Part shown: one piece after another, positions 3 through 21,000 of the stretch
How positions within the stretch are numbered: the first letter of the stretch is position 1
Layout of the letters: each line of letters begins with the position of its first letter
Origin: an uncultured Planctomycetales bacterium
GTDB taxonomy: Bacteria; Omnitrophota; Gorgyraeia; Zapsychrales; JANLHA01
Length of the DNA: 64,000 bases
NCBI GenBank assembly: GCA_964374105.1
Contig: CAYJXI010000001.1
Location: forward strand, 135,743 to 199,742
Direction of reading: 5' to 3'
The notes under the pieces: generated by a model
What the model was told of the DNA's origin: nothing
What the model saw: the letters and a program-made list of their open reading frames with translations, nothing else
Databases searched by the model: none
Position numbers and translations under genes: made by a program

Positions 3-3000
3 GTGGCTAGGGAGCTAAGGACCCGTACTCGTGCCGAGATAGTGGAAAGCCTGCGGCAGAGAAAGATAGAAATTGGGAAACACGATGACTCGCTTAATAC
101 GCTCGAGTTATATTTCAAGGTCGGTTCAATGAGTAGTAAACCGAAAGGTTCATATCATATTCTCACTATCCGATATCCTTTGGAAGATAACGTTATCGAG
201 AAGGTGGAACTTCGATATGCCTATGCGAACGACGATTCGTCAGATGCATTCATCGCAACAAGTGTCTGGACCCTCAGCTCTATTCGGGACGTAGCTATTG
301 TTGAGGGGAATGATAGACACCAAGTGCGGGTCGTGATGATACTCAAGGCAGGTGCTACCGAAGGCTTGAATTTAATCGGGCATCCTATTTCTGAGGACAT
401 CGTGAATCCGGATGGTTCTCATTTTAAGCGGACCTTTGAAGTCATGAGGGAAGAGGATATTGTTAAAGATGAAGGCCTGATCCGTCAGGCTGGTTTAAGC
501 GTCTGGAAGAGGATGACTCAATCACTTAACCGTATTGAATGGTTGGGCAGCCTGCCGCATACAGCTCAGGTCAATGCGCTTGCTTTCTCTTATGACGGAC
601 TTTATCTGGCGGCAGGCACACAGAACGGCGAGGCGCCGGTCTGGAGCGTAGATGTCGGTATGAAACGCCACACTAACAAGAATCCCGATGGCAAGCCCAT
701 TCATGATGTCCTTATTACCGGTACAGGAGAAGAGGCCCTGACCACCGGTGAGAGCCAGTCCGTCCAACAAGGGGAAGGGCAGGAAGAACACAACGATGAC
801 GATGATGACTTTGATGATGAAGATGATGATGTTTCTGATCGCAACGCGGATAAATATCCGGCCACGATGCCAACAACCAATGAACTCGACCGCGCACCGA
901 TAAAAGAAAAACTAGAGACAATTAGAACAGCCTTGGGTGGTAGAAAGGCCTTGGTTGAGAACGGCATCAACCTTAGTGGAATTAATGTGGTAATGAGCCC
1001 AACGCTCGCTGCGCCAGCCGAGGTAAGGGGTGGGATCCTGTATATTAACCCGATTACATTGCGTGCACCCCAAGAGCAGTTAATGGTCATATTCGAAGGT
1101 CATGAACTGTATCACCTTTTGGGTCGCAATGAAGAAGAGACCCGCCATCTCACCCTGCAGTATCTCATTGAACACAATCTCTTATTAAGACACATCGCCT
1201 TCCTTGAAAATAATGATCTCGGTTTAACTGCTCATCAGGGATGGTTAAAGCAACTCCAAAGGACTTTACAACAACTCGCAAATGAGAGTTTACTGAATGA
1301 AGAAAGAGAAGGGGTCTTTTTACTTAAGAAACTCAAAGGGCTTATGGTGGCTGTGTCCCTCATGGATATTGGGGCGGAAGTTAGTTCAGAGGGCCGTATT
1401 GATTATCGAGAAAGTCTTAACAAGACTAGAGAACTTCTAGCCATTTTAGCCGAGCAGGGTGTAAGTAGTATTTACCTTTACGGCGGGTTATATGCAATTG
1501 GCGGAATATCTATACAGCTTCACCAAGTGCCCAATCCAGGCCTCCATATATTAACAAATAGGCAAGCAATGATTGGCATTGAAAATTACCAAACCAAGAG
1601 CCAGACCTTGGAAGGCAAGATCAATGTTGAACTGAAAGATTATTTTGGTAATCCGTTCTCCATTTACAGTATGCAAGTTTTGAATCCTAAATTATCGAAT
1701 GGGAATGTTGAGGAAAACTTAACAGCATTAATCCAGACGGCACAACGTTTTGGATTAGACGTGACAGTTGATTTTATCCCATGGTTGGCGCCGGATGCGA
1801 TTAACGAAGGGAATTATCGCTGGACGATTTATCGAGAGATGAATGATTATGAACAACGCCATCCAGAAAATGTCTTGGGTGAATATTTTGCAGTTAAGAT
1901 TAATGAAGATGGTAAACAACGCTATGTGGCTGTTCGACATTTGCTGGGCTTCGGTACGCCTAATGTGGATGAGACCATCCTCAATGCATTTGATCCGCAA
2001 ACACAGAAATATTATATCGATTCCTTAAAATCATTGATGGATAGAGGAATATACAGTGTACGGGTGGATTTGGCGCACAACCTCCTTATGAATCATTTGA
2101 TTCATTATTTTCCAGAAGGCCGACAATTGGAACTAGAGGGTGAACCTGAACCATGGTCGATTATCTTTAAGGCCGTCAAAGAGTATGCCGATAAAAAGGG
2201 GAGAAGATTTAAATTTATTATGGAAACATATGATCAAGCCGATCGGGATAATCTGCGTTCGTTAGGAAAATATGCAGATGTTGATGTGCAGGTTTATTAT
2301 AAAAATGTTTATGATGATTTTAATAAACCTTCCACTGATGACTTATCCTGGTCGGTTAATTATGCGATAACTGTAAGTCCGCAGACAATCGTATTTCCGT
2401 CCAATTTTGATGAACCGTCCTTAAAATTGCTAAATGGATCTCGATATGGATTTATGCGATTGTTACTGGTGATGGCTTATTTGGGAGTGCCGGTGATGGT
2501 AGATTTAAGAGAATGGGTGGATCATACTGGTCAAATTAACACGATAGTGGGAGGAAGAGATCCGAGTGGATATATCCGGCATCCGTTTGTGACAGCCGAT
2601 GAATTATTAAGAAGAAGAGATTGGAATGGTCTAAAAACAGCAGTTTTGAGATCTCCCTGGACAAATTTTGTCAGAGAATTACAGGAGACATCTTTAGAAT
2701 CTCAGCCGGATTCGATTATTGAGGAACATCGGGTTTCAGCTTGGTATTTATTTAATTACGCAGATATACAATATCAGGGACGATTTATCAGTCTCGGTTG
2801 GTTATTAGCAGATCGGCTGAACATCTTTATCTATAATGCCCGACCAAAGGAAATTGAACAAACAATTACCGTGAAGTTGCCTTTTGACTTATTGGATGTT
2901 TTAAAGGACGTTGGTCAAGAGACATTGGGAGTATCCTTTGCCTCCGGTGAGGAAAGCCGCTTGATTTCTATTTCGTTAATAGGACTTAAAAAGAAGAGAT

Positions 3001-6000
3001 CTTCTTATGAAATTGCACTGAGTATGATTCAACATGATTCCTTCACCTGGGCCAATGAATTTTATCAATATTACTTAAGGTATGATAGCGAAAAATTATC
3101 TGACTTTAAGAATGAATATGAGGACGCATTAAGAAAATTATTGTTCTATTACGATCAAGATTATGCTAAAGCCAAAAATATTGTCAAAGGGGTTGCTTGG
3201 ATTTTAGCCAAACCTGAATTTTTAGGTCCAGTCAATCATGAGGCTTTGAAGGACTGGGGAGAAGATTTAAGAACAGTCTTTAACATTCTTGATACTTTTG
3301 AAGGAAACACAGAAGGAATCGTTGAGATTCTCATTAACTATCTCAAAGCTAAGGATAACAGTCGTTGGGTCATTTATCAAATTTATAGAGCTTTGGATAT
3401 TTACTTAATGAGTGGCAAAGATAAGAAAGAAGAGCATCTGTTTAAGCGAAGCGTTGCTATTTTAAGATCTGACGAGGTTAAACACGTAGCCCAAGAAACA
3501 TTGATAGAAGAAGCTGAAAGAACAAAGAGATTGGCAGAAATAGCCAGGAGTCTTGAGCAACTATTCTTCCCGTCAGAGCCAGAAAATGACGAAAAGGAAA
3601 AGCCAACCCAAGGTTTCAATGGAGCATACCAAGGGACAAGAGAAGAATTGGTAAAGGCCATTTTAAAGAGTCAGAGGATCGATGTGTCTCCCAAGTTAGC
3701 TTCGATGATCGGTCGCCAGTTTAATAAAGGAAGTCCGGTTTATGAGGCAATCGCCAAATCTCACGGATTAAGGGCGCCACCTAGAAGGATTGACAGAATT
3801 GATGTTGTTGATTTAGGCATCGATTATCGATCCGTCCTTGTTGCTCTCGGATTTTATGAACCTCAAATTACATTTGTCTTAACTCCATCCTATTATCGTC
3901 GTTTAAGAATTTTATCTCTCCTACAATTTATTTTTGGTGTAAAGCACATTTTTGATTCTCATTTGAAGATTGTATTGCGGCATGAAGTCATTGAATTCCT
4001 TGTAAGGGATCATCTGAAGGCTAAACAGATTGAGGAGGGCTATCAGTTAGCAATAAAGTCTTCAAAACTTATTGATTTTGTAAAAGGGCCGCAGCGAACG
4101 ATGCTCATTCACTTCCCGTGGCAGGTGATGAGCAAACTGAGTCGTACGTTCACTGCGGCCTTAAATTTAATGAAAGGGCTGTTACAAAAACTGCTCAATA
4201 CCATTCCGTGGCTGGTGAGGGGCAGGCTATCAGCTGTTAGTTATCAGCTGTTAGCTAAATTTGTAACAGCCCTTAGATTTGCTAAGTTCCCATTGCTTTT
4301 GTTTATTTTCATTAGTCTTTCCTTTCCAACGAAATTATTGGCCCAAGGTGTTTTTGAAGAATTTGCATCCACTCAAAGTTCAATGCCATTAGTCTTTAAG
4401 CTAATTTTGGTCGGGGTGGCATTAGGTTTGATAGGTATCGGATTAATGGTTTATCTGGCTTCAAATGATGCAAAAGGATATCTCAAACAAATAGATCACT
4501 CTCAGATCAAAGAGGGTAAACCCAGAATCCTAAGGATCATTCATTCTCTTAGAATAGGTGGGATGGAAAATAAGTTATTAGAACTGGCTAAGCATATTGA
4601 TACAAATGAATTCAACCTCATTATCTTGACGCACGAGAGTCAGGAGCAATATTCGGAGGATATTGAAAGGGCCCGGAGCCGAGGCATCCAATTTATTTTC
4701 AAACGTCCACAAGTTAATATTAGAGGGTATTCAGGGAAGGTGAAGATCATGAGGTTATTCCTACGATTGATTCCTTACCTTAAATCTACCCTAGTTGAGT
4801 TGATGTTGTATAGGGCCCTTAAGGCCGAGGTGATCCACTTTAGCGGTCCCGGCGGGTTAAGTTACCTGATTAAGAAAATATTGGCGAGATTCTTGGCCCG
4901 TATCCCGATTCTTTTAACAACCTATCATGGATTCCCGGTCATTAAGAGAGAAGGTTATCTTGAGCGATTTGGTAAGACGATAGTCCTGCTTTATACGATT
5001 TTGACTGTCTTTGGCATGCGTTATTTGGATCATGCCTTGATTGCCTTAACGGAAAAAGAAAGGAAAGCCCACATCGAAACAGGTGTCCCTCCCCAAAAGA
5101 TCTACGTGATCCCCAATGGGATTGATTTAAGAAACTTTGAGAATATTGCAATGCCAACGGGAATCTCTTCGTTAGATTCGCGGCTGATCGAAATCCTTGC
5201 AAACGAGAACAACTTGATTATAGGAACTGTGGGAAGGCTCCATTTTGTTAAAGGCCATGAATATCTGATCACGGCAGCTAAGCAGATTTTGGCAGAGATT
5301 CCGAATGCCTATTTCTTTATCTTCGGAGAAGGAGAGATAAGAGGGAAACTTGAAAGCCAAATCAAAACTTTAGGTTTAGCGGATCGATTCTTTATCCCAG
5401 GGAATATTTCCCATGATGATGTGCCCAAAGTCCTTTCTTTAATAAATATCTTTGTTCTTCCCTCTTTGAGTGAAGGGATGCCGACCGTCGCTATGGAAGC
5501 CATGGCTGCGGGACTTCCCATTGTTGCCAGTCGTGTTGATGGGATTCCGGATACAGTTGGACAAGAGGCAGGAATCTTAGTTTCCCCCAAAGATTCATTG
5601 GCTTTGGCGAAAACGATCATTCATCTTGCAAAGAATAAAGAAGAAAGAGAAAGAAGAGGTGTACTGTTAAAACAACGAGCCTTGGAATTATTCAGTATAG
5701 AAAGGATGACACGACAATATGAGGAGCTGTATAAAAGATTATTAAGGATTCAATATTTAAAGAGTCAGGAAGGGTGGATCAACCGTTGGTTTGGCCGAGG
5801 AGTGGCTGGTTTGATGTTAATCCTTGCCTTGCCAGTGATGGGCTTGATTGCCTTAGCTATCAAACTGGATAAGCGACATTCTGGAACGGTTATCTTTAGA
5901 CAAAATAGAATCGTTGGATACTACACCGATGGAAAGCCGATCACCCAAGAAATCATCAAATTCCGTACTTTGACAGTGAGTCCCACCGAAGGATTGGGTG

Positions 6001-9000
6001 CTATTCAAGGAATCGAAAATCGCATTACACCTTTAGGTCGTTTCCTGCGTTATCTGCATTTAGATGAATTGCCGCAGTTATGGCAGGTTGTGAAAGGGGA
6101 TTTAAGGTTAACCGGCTTCCGGCCACGGGCCTTGGCCGTAGAAAAAGAAACCGGTACAAATATTTTCCAGGAATGGCGTGAACTGTTGATTCAAAATAAT
6201 CTGTGGGCCGGGGTGATTCCCCCTGGCATGCTTCGAAAATACAGGTTGCTAAAGAGAAGTCAAAGGAGAGAAGATCCGCATCTACACAAGGTAGAGATCG
6301 AGGCGATCACGCATTCGGCCTTTTTGAATCATTTATTCATCTTGGGAGAACTTGGGATTTATATCATCTTAAAGGTCTTTAATGGCTTGATTGCAAGTAG
6401 GGCAAGTGATGTAGGGGTGCTTCGGTTAGAGGAGAGGGAATTTGCAACAGCTTTGGCGGATCGTCGTAAGTCAGGGGTAACTGAAGAAAGTATCATACAA
6501 GCGCAAATGAAGTTGAAAGAGTACGGGATCGTTTCTACCCCAACTCCACTTAATGGAATCGTAGGATTAAATGATTTTGTCAATCAAGTCCTCGGCCGCA
6601 ACAAGGAAAACGACGTGAAGGTCTACCTCAAAGACGAAACCGTTAATCCAACCGGTTCTTTCAAGGACCGTGCCCCCATTCAAGTATATCTTGACGTTGA
6701 ACTGGTGCTTAACGGTGAGATCAAGAAAATGTTTGTCCTGTCTGTCTCTACTGGCAACCACGGCCTGGCCGTTGCCCATGCGGTGAAGACTGTTATTGAA
6801 CATTTCAAGAAAGAATATCCAGACATCAAGGACCGGGTTGAGGCCCGGGTTTATATGTCCCAGGGTACGTTGGTTCATAAACGCGAGAATATCCGCAAAG
6901 AGGACGGAATCGTAGTGACCGAAATTAACGGCCAGAAGATCAGAAGTTATGAGGACGGAGAAACTGAGGTCTTCCGCCTCGTGAAGGAAAACGGCAAGGG
7001 TTATATCCAAATCCGTCATGCCGACAAGTACGTGGTTTCCGGCTATGCCACCATTGCGGTTGAAATCTTGAAACAACTCGAAGATCGCGGTATCAAGCTG
7101 GCACAAATCCAAAATGGCGAGGTTGTCGTGATTTCACCGATGGGATCAGGGGGACTTCTGGCTGGTCTTCTTCAGATGACAGCCCGTTATCCGGCGGTTC
7201 ATGGGTATGGCATCACCGCCAAGCCAGCGGACATGACCTTTCGCTCGCTATTAATCGGGGAGGCGATCCGCGAGGTGGTGGAGTTGGATTACGAGGTTGT
7301 GGTTGACGGCAATATGGCCACAACGGAAGAATTTGCTTTGAAACTGATTCAAGGTTTGGGTAAAGGAGCGTTTCTGGTCAGCGAACAGGATGCCCTCATG
7401 GCCACCGCCTTGTTGAGGCACTTTGGGATTGTGGTTGAACCCACCTCGGGATTACCTTTGGCCGGGCTTTTAATATTCGCCGATCAAAAAGAACAATTGT
7501 TAACCGAAGCTCGTCATCTTATCATGCCGCTCACCAGTAAGAATTTAAGTGAAGAAATGAATGAAAAAATTAAAGGCCTCTCTAAAGATTTAGGAAAGAT
7601 TTATGAATATTTCCTTGAGCGCAGGAAACAGGTAAAGGACGAAAGCAGGGACAGCCCCTACTTTTCAGCTGGAAAAGTAGGAACAGCCCCTACTTTCCAC
7701 AAATATTCAACATTATACTCTATGGATGCTTTTGTATTGCTGGCTGTTGCAAGCATAATGGCGCTGGTTGGTCTGGGACTTTTTGCAAAATGGATTTTAA
7801 CAAAGAGAATCAAAAATCTTATTGGGAAAGATAATGCCCTCTTAAAACGACTCAATCAATTAATGACTTTGAAAGACAAGATTGTCTTTGTTCCCTTCCG
7901 GCGAAAATTACAAGAGCTTTATACGCAAGGTAAAATTACATTCTCCAAAGGTTTAGGACAGTATTCGCAATTTATCTTAAACCGCATGGCCTTTGAGTTA
8001 GTGATGATTTATCCCAAACCGCCTTTGCAGGAGATGAGGGTTAACTGGACTTCTAGAGAAGCATCTGGATTTTCCGGACAGTTTGACCGATTGGGTCGGT
8101 TCCATTATCAGGTGACCATTGCTCAAAAAAGAATTCCCCAATCAGGTGTTTATGACAAAAAGTTTGATTACACCGTTGGTGCTGCCGAGTCTGGCCATTT
8201 GGCGCAAGCGTATTTGCAGGATGTTTTGAATTATCCCGAAACATATCAAGGTCCCGGGGCGGTTTATATGACGGGATTGTCTGAGGCAATTGAACATTTA
8301 TCCATCAGATTGTACAAATCCCTTAATTTCAAAGTCGAAGACTTCTTTAAAGATGACACTGAGTTTGATCCACATCTCTTCCTGGCCCTAAGACAGATTA
8401 ACGAAGGGTCTCTGCTTGATCCAACGTTGGTGGGTGTTGGAGCCCATGCCTATGGGATTATTATCGCCAATAAGATCAGCGAGAAACTTAATATATGGAA
8501 GCAACCTCATCAATATCGTTATAGAAAACTGACAAGATATCTGAGAGCTTATATGCAGCTTTTAATCACGGTGGATTCTTCGGTTTTAGTGAAACCCGCG
8601 GATGCGGAGTTGCAATTATTAGTTGGATTTCTGTCAGCTGTTCAAAAGGCTATCGAGAGGATTTTTGAAGGGCAAGTTGCCAAGATACAAATTTTGAAGT
8701 TAATCAAGAAACTTGACAGAGTGAATTTTGAAAAGTTGTTTGAAAAACCGCAAGTTCAAAGACTCTTTGAGCGAGGGATTAAAGAATCGGAATTGACAGA
8801 ACTTAAGACCCTGTATCAAGAGCTGAAAGAGATTGATTGGGAGGCTTCCGAAGCCAAAATACAAGCGATACTGGAATTACAAAACATTAAGAGAGTAATG
8901 GAAGAGATTCACCAAAGGGTGATTGCCCCATTCCAACAAAAAGCGAGAGATTTTGTGGAGGATGAAGTCAACAAAATCCTTGCCATCGATTCACCTAAGG

Positions 9001-12000
9001 TGTTGTTGACAAGGGCAAAGAAGGTTCTTCAAGAAAAATCCGCATCCCATGACAAGGATGAACCGAAGGCTAGAGAGGCGGCGGAGGTATCAGGCAACCT
9101 TGACGACCAAAAGGTACATTTGGGCGCCTGGTCAGGTGAACCGCTCTTTAAGGATCTCGAAGCTGAGGGTTATGTTAAGGCCAAGGTTAAGGTCGGACCG
9201 TTTGAGTATCCTGTTTATCAAAAGGGTGAACAAAGGCTTATCGTCAAGACAAGATCACACATGTGGTTTGAGGCGTTTATTGAACGCATTGCCTTTGAGG
9301 TGGCGCAGCGCGTTCGTATCGAGACAGCCGGTATTTGGTTTGTGAAAGATAAAGAAGAACGTATCTTACGTGCCCGAGAATACTGGCCAAACAGCGAGGT
9401 CCTTTCCCATCGAGACCCGATATCTGAGGAGATTATTCATGAAAGCGAATTAGCGAAAATACAGCCGGAACTTAAAATGGTGTTCCCATCACAGGTCAAT
9501 TATCCGGCCTGGCTGCCGCATTTGGCCCGGCCAGAACAATTTATTGGTTCTGATATTTTAAGACAATTTATGCAGGTTGGGGATTCCTGGGATCCGAAAC
9601 AAGTACTCATAAAACCAGTGAGTCGATCTGCCGAAGGCAAGCAATTTTATGAAGCCAGGTTTATCGATTTTGAACATGGGATGGTCATGATTATTCTGGG
9701 TCCGGAGACATTGGTCGCTTTCTTACAGGAGAATAGTTTATTATTGAAACACCACACCCGGCCTGTCTTAGAAAGGTTAGCCAATATTACGGATGAGGAA
9801 ATTGACCGTTTGATCTCTTCGGTTTTCCCTGATGAATTAGCCTCGGTAGCACAGGGTGAAGACATGAGATCATACGCGGATGTTAAGTCAACAGTAGCCA
9901 GCGGCTTAAAGACCAGCCGCGATATTGTGCGTAAATATCTGCCACAGATTAAATCGGTACCGGACATAATCGTTGATGGGACACAAAGGCCGCAAGATGC
10001 CAAGGGCTCGATCGCAGAAGGCTTAAGAACATTCCTAAAAGAGTTTAAAGATCGCTCAGTCACTTTACAAGAGTTCCGTTATAAACGTTTAACCCCTCAA
10101 GGCAGTCCGTACAGTGACACCACCATTCGTATGGAATTGAAGATGCTTGAGTTGTTGGGATTGATCTTTGTTGATCGATCGCTAAGATCTTATCGCTACC
10201 AATTGATTGAGGAGGTGCGCAATCTCTCACCGCCAGATTTGGAAGAAATACTGCAGGCCCAATGGTTGCAAAAATACAAGCTTTCTAGTCTTGGTTTGGT
10301 GGCCGCAAGACGCGATGTTCATAAAATCCTTAACCGTAATCGTCCTGCCGATTGGATTCCTGTCTGGCCAAGACAAATCCCTCGTAAGACCAAAATCGAT
10401 CGAGAAGAATTAGAGCAAATCACCTCTAAATTAAAGATGCATATTGAAAATTTGGTTAAGAATCATGATAGCCAAATGAAATTCAGCCACGATGAGACTA
10501 TTGAGATTCTTGTCTCTGCTGCTGATATTGGTTTCCATTTTGGTTTAACCGCGCCAGAGATGAAAGAACTGTTAGAAATGGCAGAATTTTTTGTAGATGC
10601 TACCGAGAAACCAAAGGGAGAATGGATCCCGCTTGACTTTATCAGTCTGATACGAATGACCCTCATCATCCTTAATCAAGTGAGGCTTGTTTACTTGGGC
10701 TGGATTATTGATTTACATCCTAAGGAAGGAGGAATACAAATTCATGAAGTCATGTCTTTTGATTTGATTTATTCTGAAAATCTCCCGCTTATTTTGGCTA
10801 CGATAAAAGATTATAGACCGGAACATCACCTTGCTGCATTCGAGTCTCCCCTTTATATCTTTTTGGATCAAGATGTCTTTGTTCATGGAAAACTTATCAA
10901 AGAAGAAAAAGAAAAATTAGAGAATCTCCCGAATTACATAAGGATGGAATATCCTCAATTGTCTCAATTCGTCGATTGGGTGAAAAATTTTAGTAAGGAA
11001 GAATTTATGGCCTTGGAAAGAAAACGGGTTTTATTTGAAGAATGGACGCATTATTTACAGTATCTAAGGATTAAAGATAAGCAGGATTACTATTTAAAGA
11101 ATCAACTGACAAGGGAGGAGCGAGGCGAACTTATCGAGAGAATCTTTAGTCTTGAGCAAAAAATAAAATTAGTCCGTTCGGTTAAAGAGGAACTTTTGGA
11201 AACAGTTGAGAATCTTTCTTTAACTGGTCAAGAACTCTTCAGTCTCATAGACGAAACCCATTTGGCCCTTGTTCGGATCTTATATGCTCAGTCGATAAAT
11301 GATTTCTATCTTACTTTATTAGAATTTATTATCAAGAGTCGAATTTATGAGGGGATTCAGTACCGGACAGATGAGAATTATATTACCGCTGCCCAGATTG
11401 TCTTAAAGAACCTGGTTCTTCACCTTTTTAGGAAAGAGTCTTACCATCGACCGATGATCGAACTGGTTAATGAGATGATCTCTATACCTTTGGAACAATT
11501 ATGGAAGAGAGTGAGAAGACTTACTAAACTGAGTCACAAGTCATCCCTCGCTAGCGCTCCCCGGCCCGCCAGTCACGAAAGCCGGGGCGGGCGGGACAGG
11601 CAAGTCAGACCCGCCCGCCGGACGGGCAGGAGTCAGAAGATCACAGGTCACCTGCCTCGCCGGCAGGCAGGCGAGCCACGGGTCACGGGACATGGAAGTG
11701 ATCCTGCTAAACCCAGAAATGGTTATCGGCCCAGCCAGGTTATAAGAGAATTTAGCAGGTTTAAGAGAAATCATTTTAAAGGCTTTAAACCAAATTATAA
11801 GTTTGATGATAAACAAATAGAGACTTGGATTAACACCAATATTGAACTGGCGGCGGTCTATTTCCGCAGTAAAGAGAATTATGCCACAGTGGAAAGACTC
11901 CTAAAGGCGGTCTTTGAGGAAAGGCTGCTTTGGGGTGAAAATCATATCTTCTATGGCGCTAATAATTACAACGGTCGCAACGAGGATGGGGCGATTTATT

Positions 12001-15000
12001 TGGTTGCGATCAATGACAATCCTTATTTAGCCGAAACCCTAGTGCATGAATTTTCTGGTGGTCGCCACAAGCAAAATCGGAAAGCCGAAGAAGATTTTCG
12101 TGATTGGTATCGCAGACAATCGCAGAAAGAACGCCCGCAATTTATCGAAATCAAAGGCGGCGATTACGATCCCGAGGCTTGGGCCAATCAACCTTTAACT
12201 TTGGCGGTTGTGGCTTGGTCTCATTACCAGGAGTCTAAAGAAATATTATCCTTCAAGCCAGGCGAGGGTATTAAGAAGCCTAGGCCGTCTCAACAATCGG
12301 AACTTTTGATCAGTAAGAAGGCTTTAACTTCAATTCGAGAGCAAATTGATCAAAAGCTACAAAGTGCTCAAAATAGCATAACCCTTGCGGTTGCCGATGG
12401 ACGAGAAATTGAATTTACAATACACGAAATTGCTGGACAAAAGTTTCTCATTCAAAAAGATTGGGGTGCGCAGGTAGGCCTCTCTGTGGAGATGTTGGTT
12501 TTGGCGATTCAAGATATTGCTTCAAGCAATCGGTATTGGAAAAAGGTAAGAAATCATCAACCCTTTGTCATTATGCCTCTTAATCATATCTATATCTTTG
12601 ACCATCAAACGGGAAATCTGCGTGAGGCCTTGGCGGCCAGCATTACCAGTCACAAGGTCATTGTATTACACGAAAAATTGCCCGAGATATTGGTTGAAAT
12701 TCAGAATAACTCTGCCGCCAAGAAGGTGCTGGGGACATTGGTGTGGCATTTATTGCGTTATGAATTTGTGGAAGAAATTATGAAAGCGGAAACTGATTTT
12801 ATGCTCGCTCAGGAGGACTTTAAATATTTAATGGGAAGGAGTCCAAGATCATCCCAACTTTCCGGTGCGCGAACAATCAGATCTCTCAATAAATTAGGTG
12901 TATTGAATCTCACTTATGTCCCCGTAGATATTCTGGGAGACATTTTGGGATTTAGCTCTGCCTACAATAAACGGATTGTGACAGTTCTCAAACAACACGG
13001 CATGCGCACCATCCGTCAGGTTCTCGAAAGACCCTTAAAAGATTTAACGGAAATCCGGTTTGGCGGTAACAGCCAGGAGGCGGTTATGGCCATCATCCAG
13101 GCCTTAAGATTCTATGGCTGGGTCTTGCCCAGTGATTTAGGCCAATGGTGGGAGGTGATTGAAAAATTAGCGAGAAAAGAAGGCCGCCAGCGGATCCCAT
13201 CCTATCAATATGCAATCGTCCGTTTAGCCGAGATCGCTCCCGCATCCGTAGCCGTCCTGCGTGTCCTCAAAGAACACAAAGAGTATAATGTCTCAACTCG
13301 TTTGAGGGTTATTCACCGTTTAGGACGAATTGATCAAAAAAGCCTTGATGCATCACAAATCAAGATCATTGTTTATGTCTTGGGGCAGGCGCTTTATCAA
13401 GAAGAAAGAGATGATCTGAGACTGGAATTGGTAAGAAGCCTGGTTAATTACGGCAAGGATGCCTTAGAGATTTTAAAGACAATCCTTCGCACATCGGATA
13501 TGTTTTCAAGGGAGTTTATCATTCGGGCTTTATCAAGAAGCAAAGAGACGATTGATTTACAATCATTGCTAGGTGATAAGGAGGAAGATGAACCGCATGC
13601 CATTACCTCACAGTCGCAATTCCATGAAGTAATGAAAGCTATCCGAAAAGGAAATCTCAGACTCGCCAGATGGTTTGGCGTTTTGGGATATGCCTTGAAG
13701 ATTCTCGAGGAATGGATAGCCAAATCCGGACTCATGACTGGCCCGCCGGAATTCGGGAATTCAGTTGCCTATCGTACTTACGATGGGAAGATTATCAGAA
13801 GACTTTCCCACCAGCAGGTTCAAGAAATTCTTAAAACCCACCAGTTTGATGATGAATTAATCCGTATCATTCAAGAACAGATTGATCTGCACGAAGCACA
13901 ACCCACCGAACGCAAGGCTATTTTAGCCCAAAGAAGGACCTTACGAAGACTGATCAAAGAAAGGCGAGTAGAAGCAGTTTCAAAACCCCTTGATTCCCTC
14001 CCCCTTGTGGGGAGGGCTAGGGAGGGGGAGAATTTACAGGATTCACCCTCCCCTAACCCCTCCCATCAAGGGAGGGGAAATAAAAAGGAAGCACTTGATT
14101 TCGAGGTTATGAAACCAGTTCTAGTCACAAATTACCCTGGCCTGGCTGCCAGGACAGGCGGGTCATCCCTCGGCTTCGCTCGGGATAGGCAAGTCACAGC
14201 TCGGGGCTTCTTCGCTCAGAAACGTTTGAACGCCAAACTGCCCGTTCATCTCTGGGAGATTCCATTAGGAATAACACAAGAAGATAAGGTCGCTATTGAA
14301 TCTATCATTTCTAACAATGAGTTTGATGCGGTGACACTCACTGAGCGTCCGGTGAGTGATGCCTTTGCCTCGGTCCGGCGAGTTATTTGGCAGATGAGAG
14401 AGCACATGATTCAGGGACGCTGGGTTCAATTCAAGGAATTCTTATCCGCATTGAAGGAATCTTTGGTTAAAGTATTTAGTGAAAAGGCACGCCGCGACAG
14501 TCTCAATACATTAGTTGATCTCCCGCTAAACGTGGAGGCGGTGTTGCACCTCGGCGCCCAGATGCATGGACGCCAGTTCCTAAAGAAAAGAATCCTCAAG
14601 GCGCAAATATTGGGTGCGAAGGCTTTGCTGGTATTTTCTGGCGGTGGGTTCTTCCAGCGATATATCGTTAAGACTCCTATGGGTCGGTTACTTAAAGCCT
14701 CGGGGATTTATGATCTCTTCCAGCGCATGGATGCGGTAAGAATCATAAGACTTTTAGGTGAGATGCAATCACGAGGCGAGATCACAAACGATCTACCGAT
14801 TTGGATTGTGGTTAATCCCAACGAAAAAGACCAACAGCGGGAATTGGCAGCCCTTCAGGAGAAATTAGATGAATTAAAGAAATTCCGATTCCAAAATGGT
14901 CAGCTTGTTAATGTCGCCATATTAACCCAGCCCTCATTGTTTGCCTTAAATTGGAATACGGATCGAGGTCACTGGCAGCCGACATCTCAAGAGCAAGACG

Positions 15001-18000
15001 AATTTAAAAACTTCTTCTTAAAGGCTGAAGAGCGAGGATTGCTTAACAGCATTCCGGTGATCTTCGGCATGCCGAACTTTTTGTCCCTTTATAATGTCGA
15101 TTTCTGGATTTATCTGGTGGGAAGAAAGGTCAGCAAGGATCGTGCGGCTAAACAATTGTACGAGGTCTTTAAGGAGGCAGACTTAAAAGATGAGAGATTA
15201 GCACAATCAACAAGCCAGCCCAATGTTCATTACGAATTTATCCATCGCCGAAACCTCTGGGCACAGGCGGCCATTAACTACGCACAGGATTTGGCCAAAG
15301 AGCTAAGTTCCACTACCAGCGGCTTTATCTTCCAGCCGGCCACCCGCAAGGCCAATATCCCATCTGTTCAAAATCAAATGAGAGAAACCCAATTAACCGC
15401 GGTTGAGCGCGCCTATCCGGATTTGATGAGACTCACTTCTCTCTTAAAGGAGAAAGGAATTGAATTAAATCTCAATTTGGCTCATCTCGACACTAAGCGA
15501 TTAAGGACACTACGCAATTTGTTGATTGAACTTAATAACGAAAAGCCGAGATTCTTTGAGTTGAGCTTAAACGATAAGGCGGTCTTAAACATCTTACAGG
15601 CGAATCCGGTTTTGGTGGATGCGATCAGTGAAGCGATCAGTCATTTAGGCGTAAGGGTTGAATTTACCCCGCATCTTAAGGAATCAAAATATACAAAGAT
15701 CCTTTACGAGGCGCTTTATGTAGTCTGGCGGGCGCTGTATTTCTTAGAGGCTCAATACCGTCCAACGCGCATTCGTGTTGGGGTCATGACACATCCCCGG
15801 CAGACCTTCCAAATCAATGTGGCGGCCCGGCGGTTTATGGTCAGAAACGAAAAGGGTCAATTGAAAGATACCGGGCGCTGGGAATTGCCGATTAATCTTG
15901 AACCGTTTATTATCCATTTGAATGAAGAGGTCATGCTTAATAGTACAGTCTTCGGTGAGGAAATTGACAAGATTTTACAGCGCATTGTCAAGAATGAACC
16001 GATGAGTAAGGGTGGAACTTTTATCGGGAGCGGTCAACCCACGCGCCTCAAAGACAGTGTGATTTGGAAGATCGGCCAGTATTTCTGGGAACTGCACGAT
16101 GAATTCGTGAAGGTCACCAGCGGCAGGGAAGATTACCGCAGCCGTATCGGCGGCACACCGGATAGTGTTGAGGAATTTGTCCATTATCAGGTTGATGCGA
16201 TTTTTTCCGAGATGGTATTGCCGGCCTTAAGAAATAATCGGCAGGTATTTTTGCGCAGCATTGGTCCTGGCGTTCCAGACTTTGATCGCAAGGCCTTGGA
16301 TCGAATCGCGGCACTGGCTCAGAAAGAAGGAATAAGTCTTAAGAAGTTTGAATATGTCTTTGAAGATAAATCGGCAAAGGTCATCGAGAATATCAAGGCT
16401 GTTATCGGCTTAGAAAAAGATAAAAAGACCGGTATTCGTGTCAAGTATGTGACAAGGGACATCAAGGAAACATCTTCGGATATTATCGATCAAGAATCGG
16501 TCAGTGTGGTGCGTATGGCTAATGTCTTGGGTGTACTCGAAACCGACCGCATGGCCATTATTGACGGCAAGATGTATCAGCATGAGGTCATAACGCATCT
16601 GCCGCCAGGTTTTGACGAGGAGTTAGCCGCGGCTTATAGTTTAGACAAAGAAAAATTGATTCGTGACCTTAGAAAGCTAAACGATGAAGAAAGTGTTAAA
16701 TCATTCTTTACCGAGTATCGAGGTTTGATTGGCGATCATCACCGATTCTACCAGTTCTGGCAGGCGTTCTGGGGCCATGAGGATAAGCCGCATACCGGTA
16801 TCAAGAATGAAGAAATCTTGGTGGAGATCCCGCAAGAGAAACTCAAGGACTACGCTTTCCTCAACGATGAGGTGCTTAAAGATTCCGGTGAGATCTTGGT
16901 CGAACTCTTACAAGAGGTTCCCGAAGGGATTTCTGATATTCGGTTCTTGACTTCTAACGGGGCTATTGAGGCCCTGCTGAGACAATTAAATGTCGCAAAG
17001 TCGGTCAGGGAAACCAATGTCATCGTAACCGATCAGCGGTCGTTCTACAATGTCCGCCGCATAACGGTTCTGCATAAATATGATGCCTCGATGGCGGGAT
17101 GGATTAACGGTGTTACCTTGATTAAGGCTATTGAGCGTAAGTTTCAGAATAACGTCCTCATTAATATTCAGTCAGTGGCTAAGCTGATACCCGGCATGGA
17201 TTCCTTTAAACGCTGGTTGCATATACAAGTAACAAAAGATCCGCTTAATGTCAGCGAATGGTTGACAAGCTTTAACTTACCGGGCGGCCTGCGGGAGTGG
17301 ATCTTTGAAACAGGGACGGGATTTAATAGTCTTCGCACTTGGTGGAATGATAAGAAGCGTCGTTATCCGCATCAAGGGGTGGATTTGGCTAAGTATTTTG
17401 ATGGGGAAGGAAATATCCGGGCAGTTGTGCCTGGGACAGAGATCCCATTGATTGCGGATGGCGAGGTTGTCCGAATCATTGAAAATGGCAAGACGGAAGA
17501 ATTCGACTACATTGGTCAGACCGTGATTGTTCGCCATAATATTATGAATTATCACGGTGAGTTTTTACATTCGAGTTTCGGTCATATGAATCCAGTGGCT
17601 GGCTTGAGGTTAGGTCAGTCCTTAAAGCGGGGCGACACAATCGGCAACGTTGCCGATAGCAGAACCCGTGGCCTGCGTGTCGCCTCGCACCTGGATTTCA
17701 CTTTATTCTGGGCGAAGGCGGATGTGGATTATACAAGGATCAATTGGAAGGTGATTAATCAACGAGAACCAATCCTAGGGCTGGTGAATCCGCTGCCTCC
17801 AGATTCAAGCAACAAACCAATAGATCCTGCCAAGCCGCGTGAGGGAAGAACTGAGGCAGAGGTTGTAGCTAGGTTCAATGAATTAAAGAAAAGGAATTTC
17901 AAAGGATTCCCTGCGATTTATCCGCATAATATCCCGGATTGGGTCTTAATGGTTTTGGGTTATTACAACTATTCGGGTGATCTTGTTCGCTATGGAAAGT

Positions 18001-21000
18001 TAATTGAGCTCATCAAGTCAGGGAAACTGCGTGCTGGACCGGATAAAAAGGAAATATTCTATGGTGCCAATGACACTGAGACATATCTGATTGCCGCCAA
18101 TGATAATCCTTTCAAGGCTGAAACACTCATTCATGAGCTGCATGGCGGCACGCATGAAGAGAACGAAGAAGCGGAAAGAAAATATGAGAAATTCTTTATT
18201 GGAGTGGTTCATCCTTATCAAATGGCGATTGATGAATCTATCAATATTATTATTGAAAAGCTCATTGGGGAATTGGACAGTAAGACAGGCAGAGGGGACA
18301 GTCCCCCTGCGGGGACCACCGCTATCGCGGGGCAGGCAGTCCCCTCTGCCTCAGCCATCGAGGAATTTGACGCAACGAGAACCTCGCAAGAACCTTATCT
18401 CATCTGGCAGATCAACTATCCTTCCGAGAATGCCATTCTACTGAAGACTCGTCTGCGATCTGGGTTGAAGCTGACCATCCTACCGAGGGTTTCTGATGCG
18501 AATGATCTTTCTTCCCTTGGGGAAGGCGAAGCCGATATCTTAGCGATTCAGATCAAAGGTAAGGCAACGCTTGCACCTCATGAAATCATTCATTCCCTTT
18601 TTACAAAGATTCAAGAAGGCGGTTTTATTTTGATCCACAATGATCAAGTGATTTTGACATTGGAGAAGGTCAAAGGTGGACTTGAAGTTAGGGGCTTGTT
18701 TATTAAGATGAGCGTCGAACAGCAAAGAAGCTCCCAGTGGAATATTGATCGACCGACCATTTATCTTCACCGTCAGTCAGCTGGTTTACTGAAATCTCTT
18801 GGGCCTAAATTCTTCCTTAATCCTAAGCGGTTGAGCGATTATTTGATGCTTCATCATTCATTTGCTAAATATTATTTCATCATAAAGAAAATAGAGGCCA
18901 TCTTCAAAACTGCCTTTGCAAAGACCATGGATTGGCTCGAAGATCAGGATGAAGAATTGTTGAAGGCAAGGAGAGAAATCGATGAAGTGTATAGGGAAGA
19001 GAAATTCAAAGCCATGTTTAGGTATAAACGAGCGATTAAGGTGCACCTGTCTTTCAACACGGATCTTATTATAGCGAAACGCATGGTTTCGACTTTCAAG
19101 AGGTTAGGTTACGAATCAAAAATTGAGGGGCCGGTTGTTACCTTAACCCGATGGGGCAAGAAGGCCATTCATTATTATGTTTATATCGCCTTGCCGGCTT
19201 TCAGCATCTTAAAAGATCATCTTGTTATCAAAGAGATTTCATCGCCAGGATCTAACCCTGAACCCAAAGAAAAGGAGGTTTTGGAAGAGATTGAGAAAGA
19301 ACCTGCTAAGGAGGATCTTCGCTTGGCTGAGGCCAAGGCCGCCCATGAAAGAGTTAAGAGTCTTCTGGTTGTTGTCCAAGAAGAGCTCCTGAAGGAAGCC
19401 GATCAACTTATAAATAATCCTGATCCCTTCTGGCAAGTTAACGTTAGCATTATGCGAGGCTGGTTTGAGAACCTTGCAAAAGAGAATATCCAATTTAATC
19501 AGGCTATCATGCTAGAAAAACTGCGCTTTGATCGAAATTACTGGAAGTATGATTTGGTCAAGATCCCATTTTTTATTAAGCTCCTTCTTTCCCCACAAGA
19601 GGAAGAGGTGTACGAGGCCTTATTAGCCAATTTGATGTTTATTTGGTATCACCTTGAACCTAAGAAAGAGGAAAGAGAAACAAAAGAAAAGTCTGATTCG
19701 CTTCAAAGAAAGATTAAGGCCTTTGAATATTTACATAAATTGATTACCAAGATGATGATTGTTGTGAATATTCAGGAGATCATAAAGCAGACAGATAAAA
19801 AGGTGCGACAAAATTATTATGAAAAAGGGGACAGTCCCCCAAAGGGGACAGTCCCCAATGACAAAACTTATGAATTTTACAGCGGCGGTGAATTAAAGAA
19901 ATTGGTTGAGTTCTTTAAGGAAAGTTCAACCACTTATCAACTGGTTGAAGCCACAATGGGTTTGATTAAAGATTACAACGATGTTGAGGTTGTCTTCAAA
20001 GAAGACAAGCCAGATTCTGGTAACCTAAATCTTTCAAAAGGACTCGGAATATTATTGACTCTTGGTCTTATCCACAAGATTCTACAAGTCTTTACCAAAC
20101 AGCCTAAGGAGGAGGCAGTCAGAGTCGCTCAAGTTTTTGATTTTCCGTTGTTTGACTCTACGTTTTGGTTGACGGTTCTTGTTATTGGTGTCGCCTTTAT
20201 TGGAATTATAACCATAAAGAGCATGATAAAGAAGCAATGGATTCGTTCTTTGATGAAAACATTTAAAGATCAGAATCGAGATCTTAAAATCCGAGCCAAG
20301 GCTTTACGGAGATTATCCTTTTTATTCAGTGGAAGGAAAGAGGAAGTGATTTTAAAGACTTTCGTTAAAGCCCTCGAAGAGAAAAATCTTGAGATTCAAA
20401 TTGAAGCCGTCCGAGGTCTTGGGCTCATTGGAAGTGAACCAGACTATCTGCCTTATGTTTTAGATATCCTCACGGAGTTAATAGTGCGCAATGAAAGAAT
20501 CGTCAAAAGGGTAATGCCTGTTAGGGAATTGAGGCAATTCGTACCATATAAGCTTCTACAGGAAGTGGCGGTGAATATAGGTGAGATAGGGAAGCCCGCT
20601 TTATCCGAACTGGAAAGATATATGGGATTGTCGCTTGATACCTCTCGGACAATCATTGCCTGGGCGTTAGCACTCATCGGAAAACCGGCTTTAGCGATTC
20701 TCACCAAGGCCTTAAGCGAAAATGACCTCGCTAAGAGAGCCACTGCGGCCGAGGCCGTGTCTTACTTAAAACCACGAATAATTAAGAAGTCTATTCATGC
20801 TCTTCAATCTTCTCTCATCGACCAATATGATGATTATCATTACATGAGTTTAATTCATGTTTATGCTTCGCAGGCGTTGGTAAAGGTGGGAGATCGTGGG
20901 GTACAATTCTTAATTGATTTAGCCAGATTCCATCCCAAGATGATGACAAGATTCAGGGCCAGAGATGCCATTGAGGGGATTACAACACCCAAAGTTCTCG

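What the first reader, a model, noticed from the sequence alone, without database searches (positions are those of the whole stretch)
11539..14218. Three GC-rich, dyad-symmetric islands in an AT-leaning ORF, two of them sharing 10-11-mers
Islands at 11539-11690, 13986-14078 and 14136-14218 are far more GC-rich than their surroundings. All three are translated in frame as low-complexity Pro/Arg/Gly/Ser linkers. Islands 1 and 3 both contain GTCATCCCTCG and AGGCAAGTCA. Island 2 has two clean hairpins (CCCTCCCCC/GGGGAGGG and CCCCTCCC/GGGAGGGG) plus G4 and i-motif tracts. They look like small GC-rich repetitive elements, REP/MITE-like or remnants of inserted DNA, domesticated as interdomain linkers. 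They could also be structured sites in the DNA or mRNA.
Basis: seen in the sequence. Interest (0 to 1): 0.65.

Follow-up and report, generated by a model that had tools for sequence, protein, structure and literature searches.

The report
Repeat DNA translated inside giant gene
Three GC-rich patches in a giant (>64 kb) bacterial gene are copies of short repeated DNA elements that normally lie between genes in many bacterial phyla; here they sit in frame between protein domains and are read as flexible linkers.

Summary
The whole window is one open frame of 21,332 codons, a giant multi-enzyme gene. Island 1 is the strongest GC peak in it (72% against 44%). Its third-codon-position GC (0.73 against 0.48 expected) cannot come from amino-acid demand.

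Island 2 (13993-14081) is a full-length member of a double-hairpin, REPIN-like element family. A covariance model built only from copies in other bacteria hits the window once, here (E=3e-12). That family turned up in more than 120 genomes of many phyla, mostly between genes.

Islands 1 and 3 are arrays of 31-32-nt units that start with GTCA. The island 3 core is 31/32 identical to a unit found in 90 metagenome contigs of 37-74% GC. There it lies in frame inside QueC, QueF, NadC, ProS, RmlD, HisH and ComM, read in all three frames. Conservation is therefore in the DNA, not the peptide.

All islands fall exactly between homology-defined domains. Only island 2 folds better than shuffled sequence.

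Not testable here: other copies in the source genome, orthologue comparison, and how the elements move. The closest analogue is the Rickettsia palindromic elements. I found no description of these two families.

The parts
3..63998 (+). Host gene: one uninterrupted reading frame of 21,332 codons that runs off both ends of the window. It is a giant multi-enzyme gene.
   Evidence: No stop codon in this frame. Pfam domains in the same frame along its length: GT4, Bac_transf, PALP, HEAT, SNF2/Helicase_C, methyltransferases, HAD, His_Phos_1.
11533..11691 (+). Island 1: a 159-nt (53-codon) array of units that start with GTCA (starts at 11533, 11540, 11572, 11604, 11632, 11647, 11682), translated as a P/R/G/S/A-rich linker.
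   Evidence: GTCA occurs 7 times in 171 nt against 0.6 expected (P=3e-6), at spacings of 32, 32, 28, 15 and 35 nt. GC 71%; GC3 0.725 against 0.477 expected from its amino acids. Fold z only -1.25 and -1.8.
11540..11559 (+). Left half of a canonical GTCA unit (GTCATCCCTCGCTAGCGCTC).
   Evidence: Joined to 11593-11607 it aligns to the metagenome consensus unit with score 50, against a null maximum of 21.
11560..11592 (+). Nested 33-nt (11-codon) GC hairpin insert that splits the canonical unit. CCCCGGC pairs with GCCGGGG, with GTCA in the loop.
   Evidence: Present in island 1 and absent from island 3 and from the metagenome units. Inverted repeats I2, I3 and I6.
11593..11607 (+). Right half of the canonical unit (GGGACAGGCAAGTCA).
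   Evidence: Shares AGGCAAGTCA with island 3.
11586..11619 (+). Perfect 10-bp hairpin, GGCGGGCGGG pairing with CCCGCCCGCC, with GTCA in its 14-nt loop.
   Evidence: Inverted repeat I4, 100% complementary.
11651..11671 (+). Near-palindrome CCTGCCTCGCCGGCAGGCAGG.
   Evidence: Resembles the CCTGCCTGCCGGCAGGCAGG palindromes that sit in AT-rich intergenic flanks of the 39%-GC contig L133, also fetched as L181 and L205. Inverted repeats I1, I5 and I7.
11679..12128 (+). Protein domain that starts right after island 1 (DPAKPR...HExxGGxH). A paralogue at 17799-18197 is preceded by an ordinary short linker with no island.
   Evidence: phmmer hits to query residues 227-376. Internal paralogue at 33-34% identity, E=2e-18 in the self-BLAST and 2e-21 pairwise. 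Sequence upstream of the paralogue.
13563..13973 (+). Protein domain that ends just before island 2.
   Evidence: phmmer hits to query residues 855-991. 44% identity to P0002.
13993..14081 (.). Island 2: a full-length double-hairpin (REPIN-like) element. Layout: [C-block, loop, G-block], 3 nt, [G-block], spacer, [C-block], 3 nt, [C-block, loop, G-block].
   Evidence: Covariance model R1, built from 16 copies in other bacteria, matches only here, full length, 64.7 bits, E=3.3e-12. Fold -57 kcal/mol, z=-3.3 and -3.5. Arms 13990-14033 and 14041-14084.
14009..14028 (+). G-quadruplex motif GGGGAGGGCTAGGGAGGGGG.
   Evidence: Pattern scan found only 3 G4 motifs in 64 kb against 0.36 in shuffles. The identical 20-mer occurs in the Chelatococcus intergenic copy.
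14046..14064 (-). G-quadruplex motif on the minus strand (a C-run, i-motif-type tract on the plus strand).
14124..14217 (+). Island 3: a short array opening with the word GTCACAA. It holds a degenerate unit (14134-14159), an intact unit (14162-14193) and a degenerate partial unit (14193-14217).
   Evidence: Alignment scores to the canonical unit are 25, 60 and 20, against null maxima of 23, 24 and 20. Fold z=-0.2, not significant.
14162..14196 (+). Intact GTCA unit, GTCATCCCTCGGCTTCGCTCGGGATAGGCAAGTCA.
   Evidence: 31/32 identical to the unit in metagenome contigs L149, L199 and L208. The 27-nt core pattern matched in 90 metagenome contigs, with no gap in nearly all.
14241..14594 (+). Protein domain that follows island 3.
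   Evidence: phmmer hit to query residues 1081-1198. The LWEIPLG anchor aligns to P0002.

Best explanation
The three islands are copies of short, GC-rich, DNA-level repeat elements. These elements normally lie between genes and occur in many bacterial phyla. Here they have been inserted, and locally duplicated, inside a giant multi-domain gene.

Two kinds are present:
- a roughly 90-nt double-hairpin, REPIN-like element (island 2);
- arrays of 31-32-nt units that begin with GTCA, one of them split by a nested 33-nt hairpin (islands 1 and 3).

They persist because they keep the reading frame, carry no stop codon in that frame, and fall between folded domains. There they are translated as flexible Pro/Arg/Gly/Ser/Ala linkers.

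Shown: family membership, conservation at the nucleotide level, position between domains, and excess third-position GC.

Inferred: that they arrived by insertion rather than arising in place.

Speculative: the mobilising activity. It may be a hairpin-recognising single-strand transposase of the RAYT / IS200-IS605 kind, with replication slippage for the tandem units and GTCA as a recognition word. Any effect of the hairpin and G4 on transcription or translation is also speculative.
For: 1. Island 2 is a family member. A covariance model built only from 16 elements of other bacteria hits the window once, at 13993-14081, full length, E=3e-12.

2. The island 2 family is widespread and mostly intergenic.
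- It was found in more than 120 loci of Proteobacteria, Planctomycetota, Chloroflexi, Nitrospirae, Bacteroidota, Cyanobacteria, Actinomycetota and Omnitrophica.
- It is multi-copy in rhizobial replicons, up to 18 places per record.
- It lies in open frames less often than random positions do (37% against 75%).
- Example positions: after a stop codon in an Omnitrophica MAG, and between the binding-protein and permease genes of an ABC operon.

3. The island 1/3 unit is also widespread. Its 27-nt core matched in 90 metagenome contigs of 37-74% GC with unrelated flanks.

4. That unit inserts into genes. It lies in frame inside QueF, NadC, QueC, ProS, RmlD, HisH and ComM, with Pfam matches spanning both sides.

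5. The same DNA is read in all three sense frames (HPSTSLGTG, SSLGFARDRQ, IPRLRSGQA). The conserved thing is therefore DNA, not peptide.

6. Related units are dynamic. Closely related comM genes show presence/absence and copy-number polymorphism of a related 23-24-nt unit at one site.

7. Composition: GC3 of island 1 is 0.725 against 0.477 expected from its own amino acids (p < 1/3000).

8. Signs of insertion in the window:
- Island 1 has a nested 33-nt insert inside a canonical unit.
- The paralogous domain at 17799 has no island in front of it.
- The nearest homologue with the same domain order has a 40-aa linker where the window has 112 aa.
Against: - No copy could be sought elsewhere in the source genome. 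No orthologue exists in the databases, so there is no empty-site comparison for these three positions.
- Islands 1 and 3 do not fold better than shuffled sequence, so they are not REP-like palindromes.
- No target-site duplications, transposase or other mobilising gene was seen.
- Amino-acid composition alone already raises the expected GC to 0.57-0.62. For islands 2 and 3 the excess is only marginal (p=0.05-0.12).
- In GC-rich genomes some matches to the island 2 search pattern could be chance. This is my own estimate of tens at most if every genome were 68% GC. The mirrored right halves and the low-GC hosts argue against chance for the family as a whole.
Confidence: 0.75

Rival explanations
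1. The islands are selected nucleic-acid structures of the giant gene itself. Stable hairpins and G-quadruplexes at domain boundaries would slow ribosomes or RNA polymerase to help domain-by-domain folding, or protect a very long mRNA from exonucleases as intergenic REP elements do. The repeat origin would then be secondary (exaptation).
For: - All three islands lie exactly at domain boundaries.
- Island 2 folds at -57 kcal/mol, z=-3.3, and carries a G4 motif on each strand.
- The same family sits in a classical REP position inside an ABC operon.
- Six more palindrome doublets lie 1.45-2.05 kb apart in the same gene.
Against: - Islands 1 and 3 have no structure beyond their composition.
- Position between domains is also what purifying selection on random insertions would leave.
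- No orthologues are available to test conservation.
- No expression data.
Confidence: 0.15
2. The islands are ordinary low-complexity protein linkers. Their GC richness follows from Pro/Arg/Gly/Ala codons, and the shared words are chance or reflect a shared peptide motif (SSL..RDRQV).
For: - Amino-acid composition alone predicts 57-62% GC for the islands.
- For islands 2 and 3 the excess over that is only marginal.
Against: - Island 1 GC3 is 0.725 against 0.477 expected (p < 1/3000).
- The same DNA unit is read in three different frames in other genes, so no peptide is conserved.
- Island 2 matches a nucleotide and structure model built from intergenic elements of other phyla.
Confidence: 0.05
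3. The islands are assembly or sequencing artefacts: chimeric joins or technical sequences incorporated into contigs.
For: The same short sequences recur in many unrelated metagenome assemblies.
Against: - The frame stays open for 64 kb across all islands.
- Insertions in QueC, ProS, RmlD and the other genes preserve the frame.
- Units vary at defined positions and form arrays of different copy number.
- Island 2 relatives occur in finished genomes of cultured rhizobia.
Confidence: 0.02

Closest known systems
Rickettsia palindromic elements (RPEs; Ogata et al. 2000 and 2002, as reviewed in PMC10969869)
   Same: Both are short repeat elements inserted in frame into unrelated protein-coding genes and translated as extra peptide segments compatible with the host protein. 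Here this holds for the giant gene, and for QueC, QueF, NadC, ProS, RmlD, HisH and ComM in metagenome contigs.
   Different: - RPEs are about 150 bp, restricted to one genus, and each family encodes a conserved peptide in one frame.
- Here the units are 31-32 nt or about 90 nt and occur in many phyla.
- The GTCA unit is read in all three frames and is not a significant palindrome.
- Sequence relationship to RPEs was not tested.
REP / REPIN elements mobilised by RAYT transposases (Bertels and Rainey 2011, PMC3116915; PMC3337134)
   Same: - Island 2 has the REPIN layout: two inverted units, each with its own small hairpin, around a short spacer, folding into one long hairpin.
- The family is multi-copy and mostly extragenic.
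- One copy sits between the binding-protein and permease genes of an ABC operon.
   Different: - Here the copy is inside a coding sequence.
- REPINs are described as lineage-specific and vertically inherited, whereas this family has near-identical cores across phyla.
- No RAYT gene and no conserved GTAG-type 5' word was seen.
- The family also carries G4 motifs.
Bacterial MITEs found within genes (ERIC, BOX, Correia, Nezha; review PMC10969869)
   Same: Small non-autonomous repeats that sometimes form in-frame fusions with host ORFs.
   Different: No target-site duplications or matching parent insertion sequence were identified. The GTCA units are direct arrays rather than elements bounded by inverted repeats.
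GC clusters and translational-bypass elements of yeast mitochondrial genomes (from my own knowledge, not checked here)
   Same: GC-rich, partly palindromic mobile islands in an AT-leaning genome that can land inside coding sequence.
   Different: Those are organellar and some are skipped by the ribosome. Here every island is stop-free in the host frame, so no bypass is needed.
Giant multi-enzyme genes of Omnitrophota (bioRxiv 10.1101/2023.11.21.568195; 10.64898/2026.06.07.730766)
   Same: The host gene has a >21,000-codon ORF tiling many unrelated enzyme domains with HEAT repeats, which is the 'multi-enzyme metabolic cluster' architecture.
   Different: Term searches of these papers for linker, palindrome and hairpin found nothing, and GC-rich or low-complexity sequence was not discussed. 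The taxon of this window is not established: no homologue above 44% identity was found.

Membership tests
G/C-block double-hairpin element family (defined here hits) | Full-length match to a sequence and structure model built from members in other genomes | tested here: met
   Model R1 (16 sequences, window excluded) matches 13993-14081, model positions 1-104 of 104, 64.7 bits, E=3.3e-12. It is the only hit in 64 kb.
GTCA-unit family (31-32-nt unit GTCATCCCTCGrCTTCGCTCGGGACAGGCAAG, defined here hits) | Near-identity to the consensus unit, including the flanking GTCAC(A)A(G) word | tested here: met
   Island 3 core is 31/32 identical. Island 1 units u1+u2, once the nested 33-nt insert is removed, score 50 against a null maximum of 21. 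GTCACAA opens both islands, as in L149, L199 and L208.
REP / REPIN | Two inverted REP-like units forming one long hairpin | tested here: met
   Island 2 only: 44-nt arms that are 73% complementary, each with an 8-bp perfect inner hairpin; z=-3.3.
REP / REPIN | Many dispersed copies within one genome | not testable with these tools
   The source genome was not available. Relatives are multi-copy in other genomes (up to 18 places per rhizobial replicon). Within the window each element type is local.
REP / REPIN | Extragenic location | tested here: not met
   All three islands lie inside the open frame. The families as a whole are depleted in open frames.
REP / REPIN | Cognate RAYT (Y1 transposase) gene in the genome | not testable with these tools
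   The 64-kb window holds only the giant ORF. No Y1/IS200-type domain appeared in the Pfam scans of codons 1-19,999. The last 1,333 codons (nt 60000-63998) were not scanned.
REP / REPIN | Lineage-specific, vertically inherited sequence family | tested here: not met
   The same core occurs in at least 8 phyla.
Rickettsia palindromic element-like coding insertions | In-frame insertion in protein-coding genes without disrupting them | tested here: met
   The giant ORF stays open. The GTCA unit lies in frame in 7 conserved genes, with Pfam matches on both sides.
Rickettsia palindromic element-like coding insertions | Palindromic element encoding a conserved peptide in one frame | tested here: not met
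   The GTCA unit is read in three frames. Islands 1 and 3 are not significant palindromes.
Rickettsia palindromic element-like coding insertions | Sequence homology to a described RPE family | not tested
   No RPE sequences were compared.
MITE | Terminal inverted repeats plus target-site duplication | tested here: inconclusive
   The island 2 arms could count as terminal inverted repeats. No duplication is evident, and there is no empty site to compare.
Rfam RNA families | Match at or above a family's gathering score | tested here: not met
   Only sub-threshold generic long-hairpin (miRNA-precursor) matches in the window and in six related loci.
G-quadruplex-forming sequence | Four G-runs of at least 3 with loops of 1-7 nt | tested here: met
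   14009-14028 on the plus strand and 14046-14064 on the minus strand. Actual folding cannot be tested here.

The most novel reading that the evidence does not exclude
A shared vocabulary of short GC-rich DNA modules circulates across bacterial phyla. It includes the G/C-block double hairpin, the 31-32-nt GTCA unit and its 24-nt relatives, and palindromes such as GGGGACAGTCCCC and CCTGCCTGCCGGCAGGCAGG. A still unidentified mechanism would move these modules and insert them in frame into housekeeping genes. Giant genes, with their many linkers, would act as major reservoirs. This would be a phylum-spanning equivalent of the Rickettsia coding palindromes. The GTCA word, enriched at unit starts and in hairpin loops, could mark the cleavage or recognition site of a single-strand (HUH/Y1-type) nuclease.
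Probability: 0.3. Interest if true: 0.8.

Novelty: new variant of a known kind. Interest (0 to 1): 0.6.

Why it matters
- Linkers in at least one giant gene are partly built from repeat DNA rather than evolved protein sequence. This bears on how such genes grow and tolerate change, and on how to annotate them.
- It exposes two apparently undescribed element families with near-identical cores across phyla. One of them inserts in frame into housekeeping genes. Coding-sequence colonisation of the kind known from Rickettsia may therefore be far more widespread in uncultivated bacteria.
- These elements create spurious peptide similarity and odd composition, which can mislead homology searches, horizontal-transfer detection and gene calling.
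- If the hairpin and G4 features act on the 64-kb-plus transcript, they would link repeat elements to the expression of giant genes.

Tried and rejected
Searches for relatives of the host gene:
- A word-indexed protein search with the 1,267-aa region around the islands found nothing.
- A full phmmer search against 1.84 billion representatives found only single-domain relatives at 28-43% identity.
- A second word-indexed search with the GT4/sugar-transferase/PALP region gave at best 26-37% identity.
- Result: no orthologue comparison is possible and the taxon is unknown.

Known-family and literature checks:
- Rfam scans of the islands and of six related loci gave only sub-threshold miRNA-like long hairpins.
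- Literature searches for the element sequences and their peptide read-outs found nothing relevant. A search on rhizobial intergenic mosaic elements was not followed up.

Other searches:
- A viral-contig scan for the GGGGACWGTCCCC doublet gave 0 hits.
- Fuzzy searches for the island 1 and island 3 motifs in the first 120 loci gave none.
- The GTCA unit against plasmids gave only two weak Sphingomonas hits.

Ideas considered and dropped:
- Chance sharing of the 10-11-mers. Within 64 kb a repeated 11-mer is common, but not between two short islands, collinear, and matching an external family.
- A protein-level motif (three frames are used).
- A technical artefact (frame-preserving insertions, and copies in isolate genomes).
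- Recoding or bypass (no stop codons to skip).

Full report
**Setting**

The 64,000-nt window is one stop-free reading frame from position 3 to 63998 (21,332 codons) that runs off both ends. The ORF listing shows nothing there only because it omits ORFs that reach the window ends.

Pfam domains lie along the same frame: GT4 glycosyltransferase, bacterial sugar transferase, PLP-dependent enzyme, HEAT repeats, SNF2 helicase, several methyltransferases, HAD hydrolase and histidine phosphatase. This is the architecture described for giant multi-enzyme genes of Omnitrophota (bioRxiv 10.1101/2023.11.21.568195; 10.64898/2026.06.07.730766).

The taxon is an inference only. No protein in the databases is more than 44% identical to any part I queried. 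Term searches of the two papers for linker, palindrome and hairpin found nothing, and GC-rich or low-complexity sequence was not discussed.

**Checking the observation**

- Mean GC is 44% (sd 7.4% in 60-nt windows).
- Island 1 is the longest and strongest GC island of the window. It spans 11527-11717 at 66% GC, with 100-nt windows up to 72%.
- Islands 2 and 3 reach 55-63%, no more than about twenty other short peaks.
- All three are translated in frame as P/R/G/S/A-rich peptides.
- GTCATCCCTCG and AGGCAAGTCA occur exactly and only in islands 1 and 3. Composition-matched shuffles of the two islands share an 11-mer in 1.2% of trials.
- Island 2 also holds two of the only three G4 motifs in the window, one per strand; shuffles give 0.36.
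- Only island 2 folds better than dinucleotide shuffles: -57.2 kcal/mol, z=-3.3 (plus strand) and -3.5 (minus strand), 0 of 200 shuffles as good. Island 1 gives z=-1.25 and -1.8, island 3 gives -0.2 and -0.35.

So 'dyad-symmetric' is justified for island 2 only.

**Is the GC just codon demand?**

I re-drew synonymous codons for each island from the gene's own usage. Amino-acid composition predicts 57-62% GC, so it explains part of the effect.

- Island 1 has GC3 of 0.725 against 0.477 expected, and total GC of 0.712 against 0.615. None of 3,000 draws reached either value.
- Islands 2 and 3 lean the same way: GC3 0.61 and 0.64 against 0.45 and 0.49, p about 0.05-0.07.

**Position in the protein**

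A full phmmer search found only domain-level relatives. In query residues these cover 227-376, 443-600, 855-991 and 1081-1198.

- Island 1 ends exactly where the first of these domains begins. Islands 2 and 3 fill the gap between the last two.
- The domain after island 1 has a paralogue at 17799-18197 (33-34% identity, E=2e-18 in the self-BLAST and 2e-21 pairwise). That paralogue is preceded by an ordinary short linker with no island.
- P0002, the nearest homologue with the same two-domain order (44% identity), has 40 residues between the HExQPTER and LWExPLG anchors. The window has 112, and the extra residues are where islands 2 and 3 lie.

**Island 2 is a member of a widespread element family**

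I scanned one genome per species for CCCTCCCC-N3-7-GGGGAGGG-N1-6-GGGAGGGG. Hosts included:
- Alpha-, Beta-, Gamma- and Deltaproteobacteria
- Planctomycetota
- Chloroflexi
- Nitrospirae
- Bacteroidota
- Cyanobacteria
- Actinomycetota
- an Omnitrophica MAG

Many loci show the whole island 2 layout: [C-block, loop, G-block], 3 nt, [G-block], spacer, [C-block], 3 nt, [C-block, loop, G-block]. They often have the same CTTGTG loop.

Some matches in very GC-rich genomes could be chance. The mirrored right halves and the hosts of 41-50% GC cannot be.

A covariance model built from 16 such elements, with the window excluded, hits the window once. The hit is at 13993-14081, full length, 64.7 bits, E=3.3e-12.

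The family is mostly intergenic:
- 37% of copies lie in a frame open for at least 200 nt on both sides, against 75% of random positions in the same loci.
- The Omnitrophica copy follows a stop codon.
- A Chelatococcus copy, sharing the exact 20-mer GGGGAGGGCTAGGGAGGGGG, lies in the 186-nt gap between the binding-protein and permease genes of an ABC operon. This is a classical REP position.
- Rhizobial replicons carry up to 18 copies each, mostly with no CDS beneath.
- At least one half-element lies inside a 1,068-aa ORF of a 42%-GC Planctomycetales MAG.

**Islands 1 and 3 are arrays of a second element**

A metagenome scan for CATCCCTCG-N4-CGCTC-N0-30-GGGAYAGGC found 90 contigs, nearly all with gap 0. 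It is a conserved 27-mer in contigs of 37-74% GC with unrelated flanks.

In three low-GC contigs (L149, L199, L208) the full unit is GTCATCCCTCGrCTTCGCTCGGGACAGGCAA(G). It is single or tandem and is bracketed by GTCACAAG words.

Island 3:
- The core (14162-14193) is 31/32 identical to the unit.
- It is flanked by degenerate units.
- It is opened by GTCACAA at 14124.

Island 1:
- It also opens with GTCACAA, at 11533.
- Its first two units equal one canonical unit split by a nested 33-nt (11-codon) hairpin (score 50 against a null maximum of 21).
- GTCA occurs 7 times in 171 nt against 0.6 expected (P=3e-6), at 28-35-nt spacing, and tends to lie in hairpin loops.
- Its right part resembles CCTGCCTGCCGGCAGGCAGG palindromes that sit in AT-rich intergenic flanks of a 39%-GC contig.

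**The unit behaves as inserted DNA**

In low-GC contigs it lies in frame inside QueF, NadC, QueC, ProS, RmlD, HisH and ComM. Pfam matches span both sides of the insert.

The same nucleotides are read as HPSTSLGTG, SSLGFARDRQ or IPRLRSGQA depending on the host gene. What is conserved is therefore DNA, not peptide.

Seven verified coding insertions in low-GC contigs are in sense orientation and one is antisense. The sample is small, so this is only noted.

An alignment of closely related comM genes shows a related 23-24-nt unit at one site in three states: absent, single, or in 5-7 tandem copies. All of them carry the island-3-type module in frame at a second site.

Overall the family is less often in open frames than random positions are (33% against 57%).

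**Interpretation**

The best-supported reading is that normally extragenic repeat elements have entered the giant gene and locally multiplied. They survive where they keep the frame and fall between domains, and they end up as flexible linkers.

- Shown: family membership, nucleotide-level conservation, inter-domain position and excess GC3.
- Inferred: insertion at these three sites. The support is the nested insert, the island-free paralogue and the shorter linker in P0002.
- Unknown: the mobilising mechanism. A hairpin-recognising single-strand transposase with GTCA as recognition word, plus slippage for tandem units, is speculation.
- Not excluded: a secondary role of the island 2 hairpin and G4 in transcription, translation or mRNA stability. 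There is no specific evidence for it.

**Comparison with known systems**

- The closest functional analogue is the Rickettsia palindromic elements, which insert in frame into unrelated genes (PMC10969869). Those are about 150 bp, confined to one genus and conserved as peptides.
- Island 2 has the REPIN layout (PMC3116915). It fails the extragenic and lineage-specific criteria, and no RAYT could be sought.
- No Rfam family matches.
- No paper in the searchable library contains these sequences.

I therefore rate it a new variant of a known kind.

**Limits**

- Neither the source genome nor a close relative was found, so dispersal within the genome and empty-site comparisons for the three islands remain untested.
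- The taxonomy of the metagenome contigs is unknown.

Noticed in passing
window 18294-27062 (18294; 19827/19844; 21279/21296; 23136/23153; 24984/25001; 27033/27050): The 13-nt perfect palindrome GGGGAC(A/T)GTCCCC occurs ten times (an eleventh copy at 27033 has one mismatch), mostly as doublets 17 nt apart, at six sites 1.45-2.05 kb apart. All are in the same frame (..GDSPxxGTVP..). The flanks are unrelated in both DNA and protein, except that the segments after 23136 and 27033 are 46% identical. They look like a third in-frame palindromic element type in the same gene. The doublet is absent from viral contigs.
   Followed up: partly
window 27005-27036: GGGGCAAGG repeated three times in tandem (read ARGARGARG) directly before a palindrome doublet. 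It is the third G4 motif of the window. The same 9-nt module type (GGGACAGGC / GGGGCAAGG arrays) follows GTCA-unit arrays in metagenome contigs L193 and L157.
   Followed up: partly
window 23163-23210 and 27075-27122: A GC-rich 48-nt stretch, 85% identical between the two places (read GHDPTRSSRPL), immediately after two of the palindrome doublets. A weaker third copy lies at 57753-57800.
   Followed up: no
window 11679-12128 and 17799-18197: Paralogous domain of about 145 aa with a DPAKPR start and an HE(F/L)xGGxH motif. It has no Pfam match and only about 20 distant relatives among 1.84 billion representatives. It may be an undescribed metal-binding or peptidase-like domain of giant proteins.
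   Followed up: partly
L145, L151, L180, L185, L201, L209 (metagenome comM loci): In closely related comM genes a stretch of native coding sequence is replaced by a mosaic of GGGGACAAGGAGACAAG-type repeats. A 23-nt unit or 5-7 tandem 24-nt units (tccttcggcaggctcaggacagg) are inserted at GCGGA^CCTGGC, in some cases breaking the frame. The gene appears to be decaying under repeat insertion.
   Followed up: partly
L183, L187, L206, L148, L174, L191 (flanks of the GTCA-unit core): The 27-mer is often bracketed by direct heptamer-like words (AGTCCAC, TGACAAG, CACGGAG) on both sides. These resemble the short tandem heptamer repeats of cyanobacteria (my recollection). They could be part of the element or preferred targets.
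   Followed up: no
L040 5880-6380 and L083, L091: Island-2-type half-elements in Bacteroidota are preceded by another small hairpin, CCCCTAAAtCCCCTaAAGGGGA. This suggests that different modules combine into mosaics.
   Followed up: no
L139 (metagenome contig, 50% GC): The only verified antisense coding insertion of the 27-mer (read ACPERGRGM), inside a GspE/PilT-like ATPase just before the conserved ...LRQDPEVLMIGEIRD motif. The protein family is named from the motif by eye, not from a Pfam scan.
   Followed up: no
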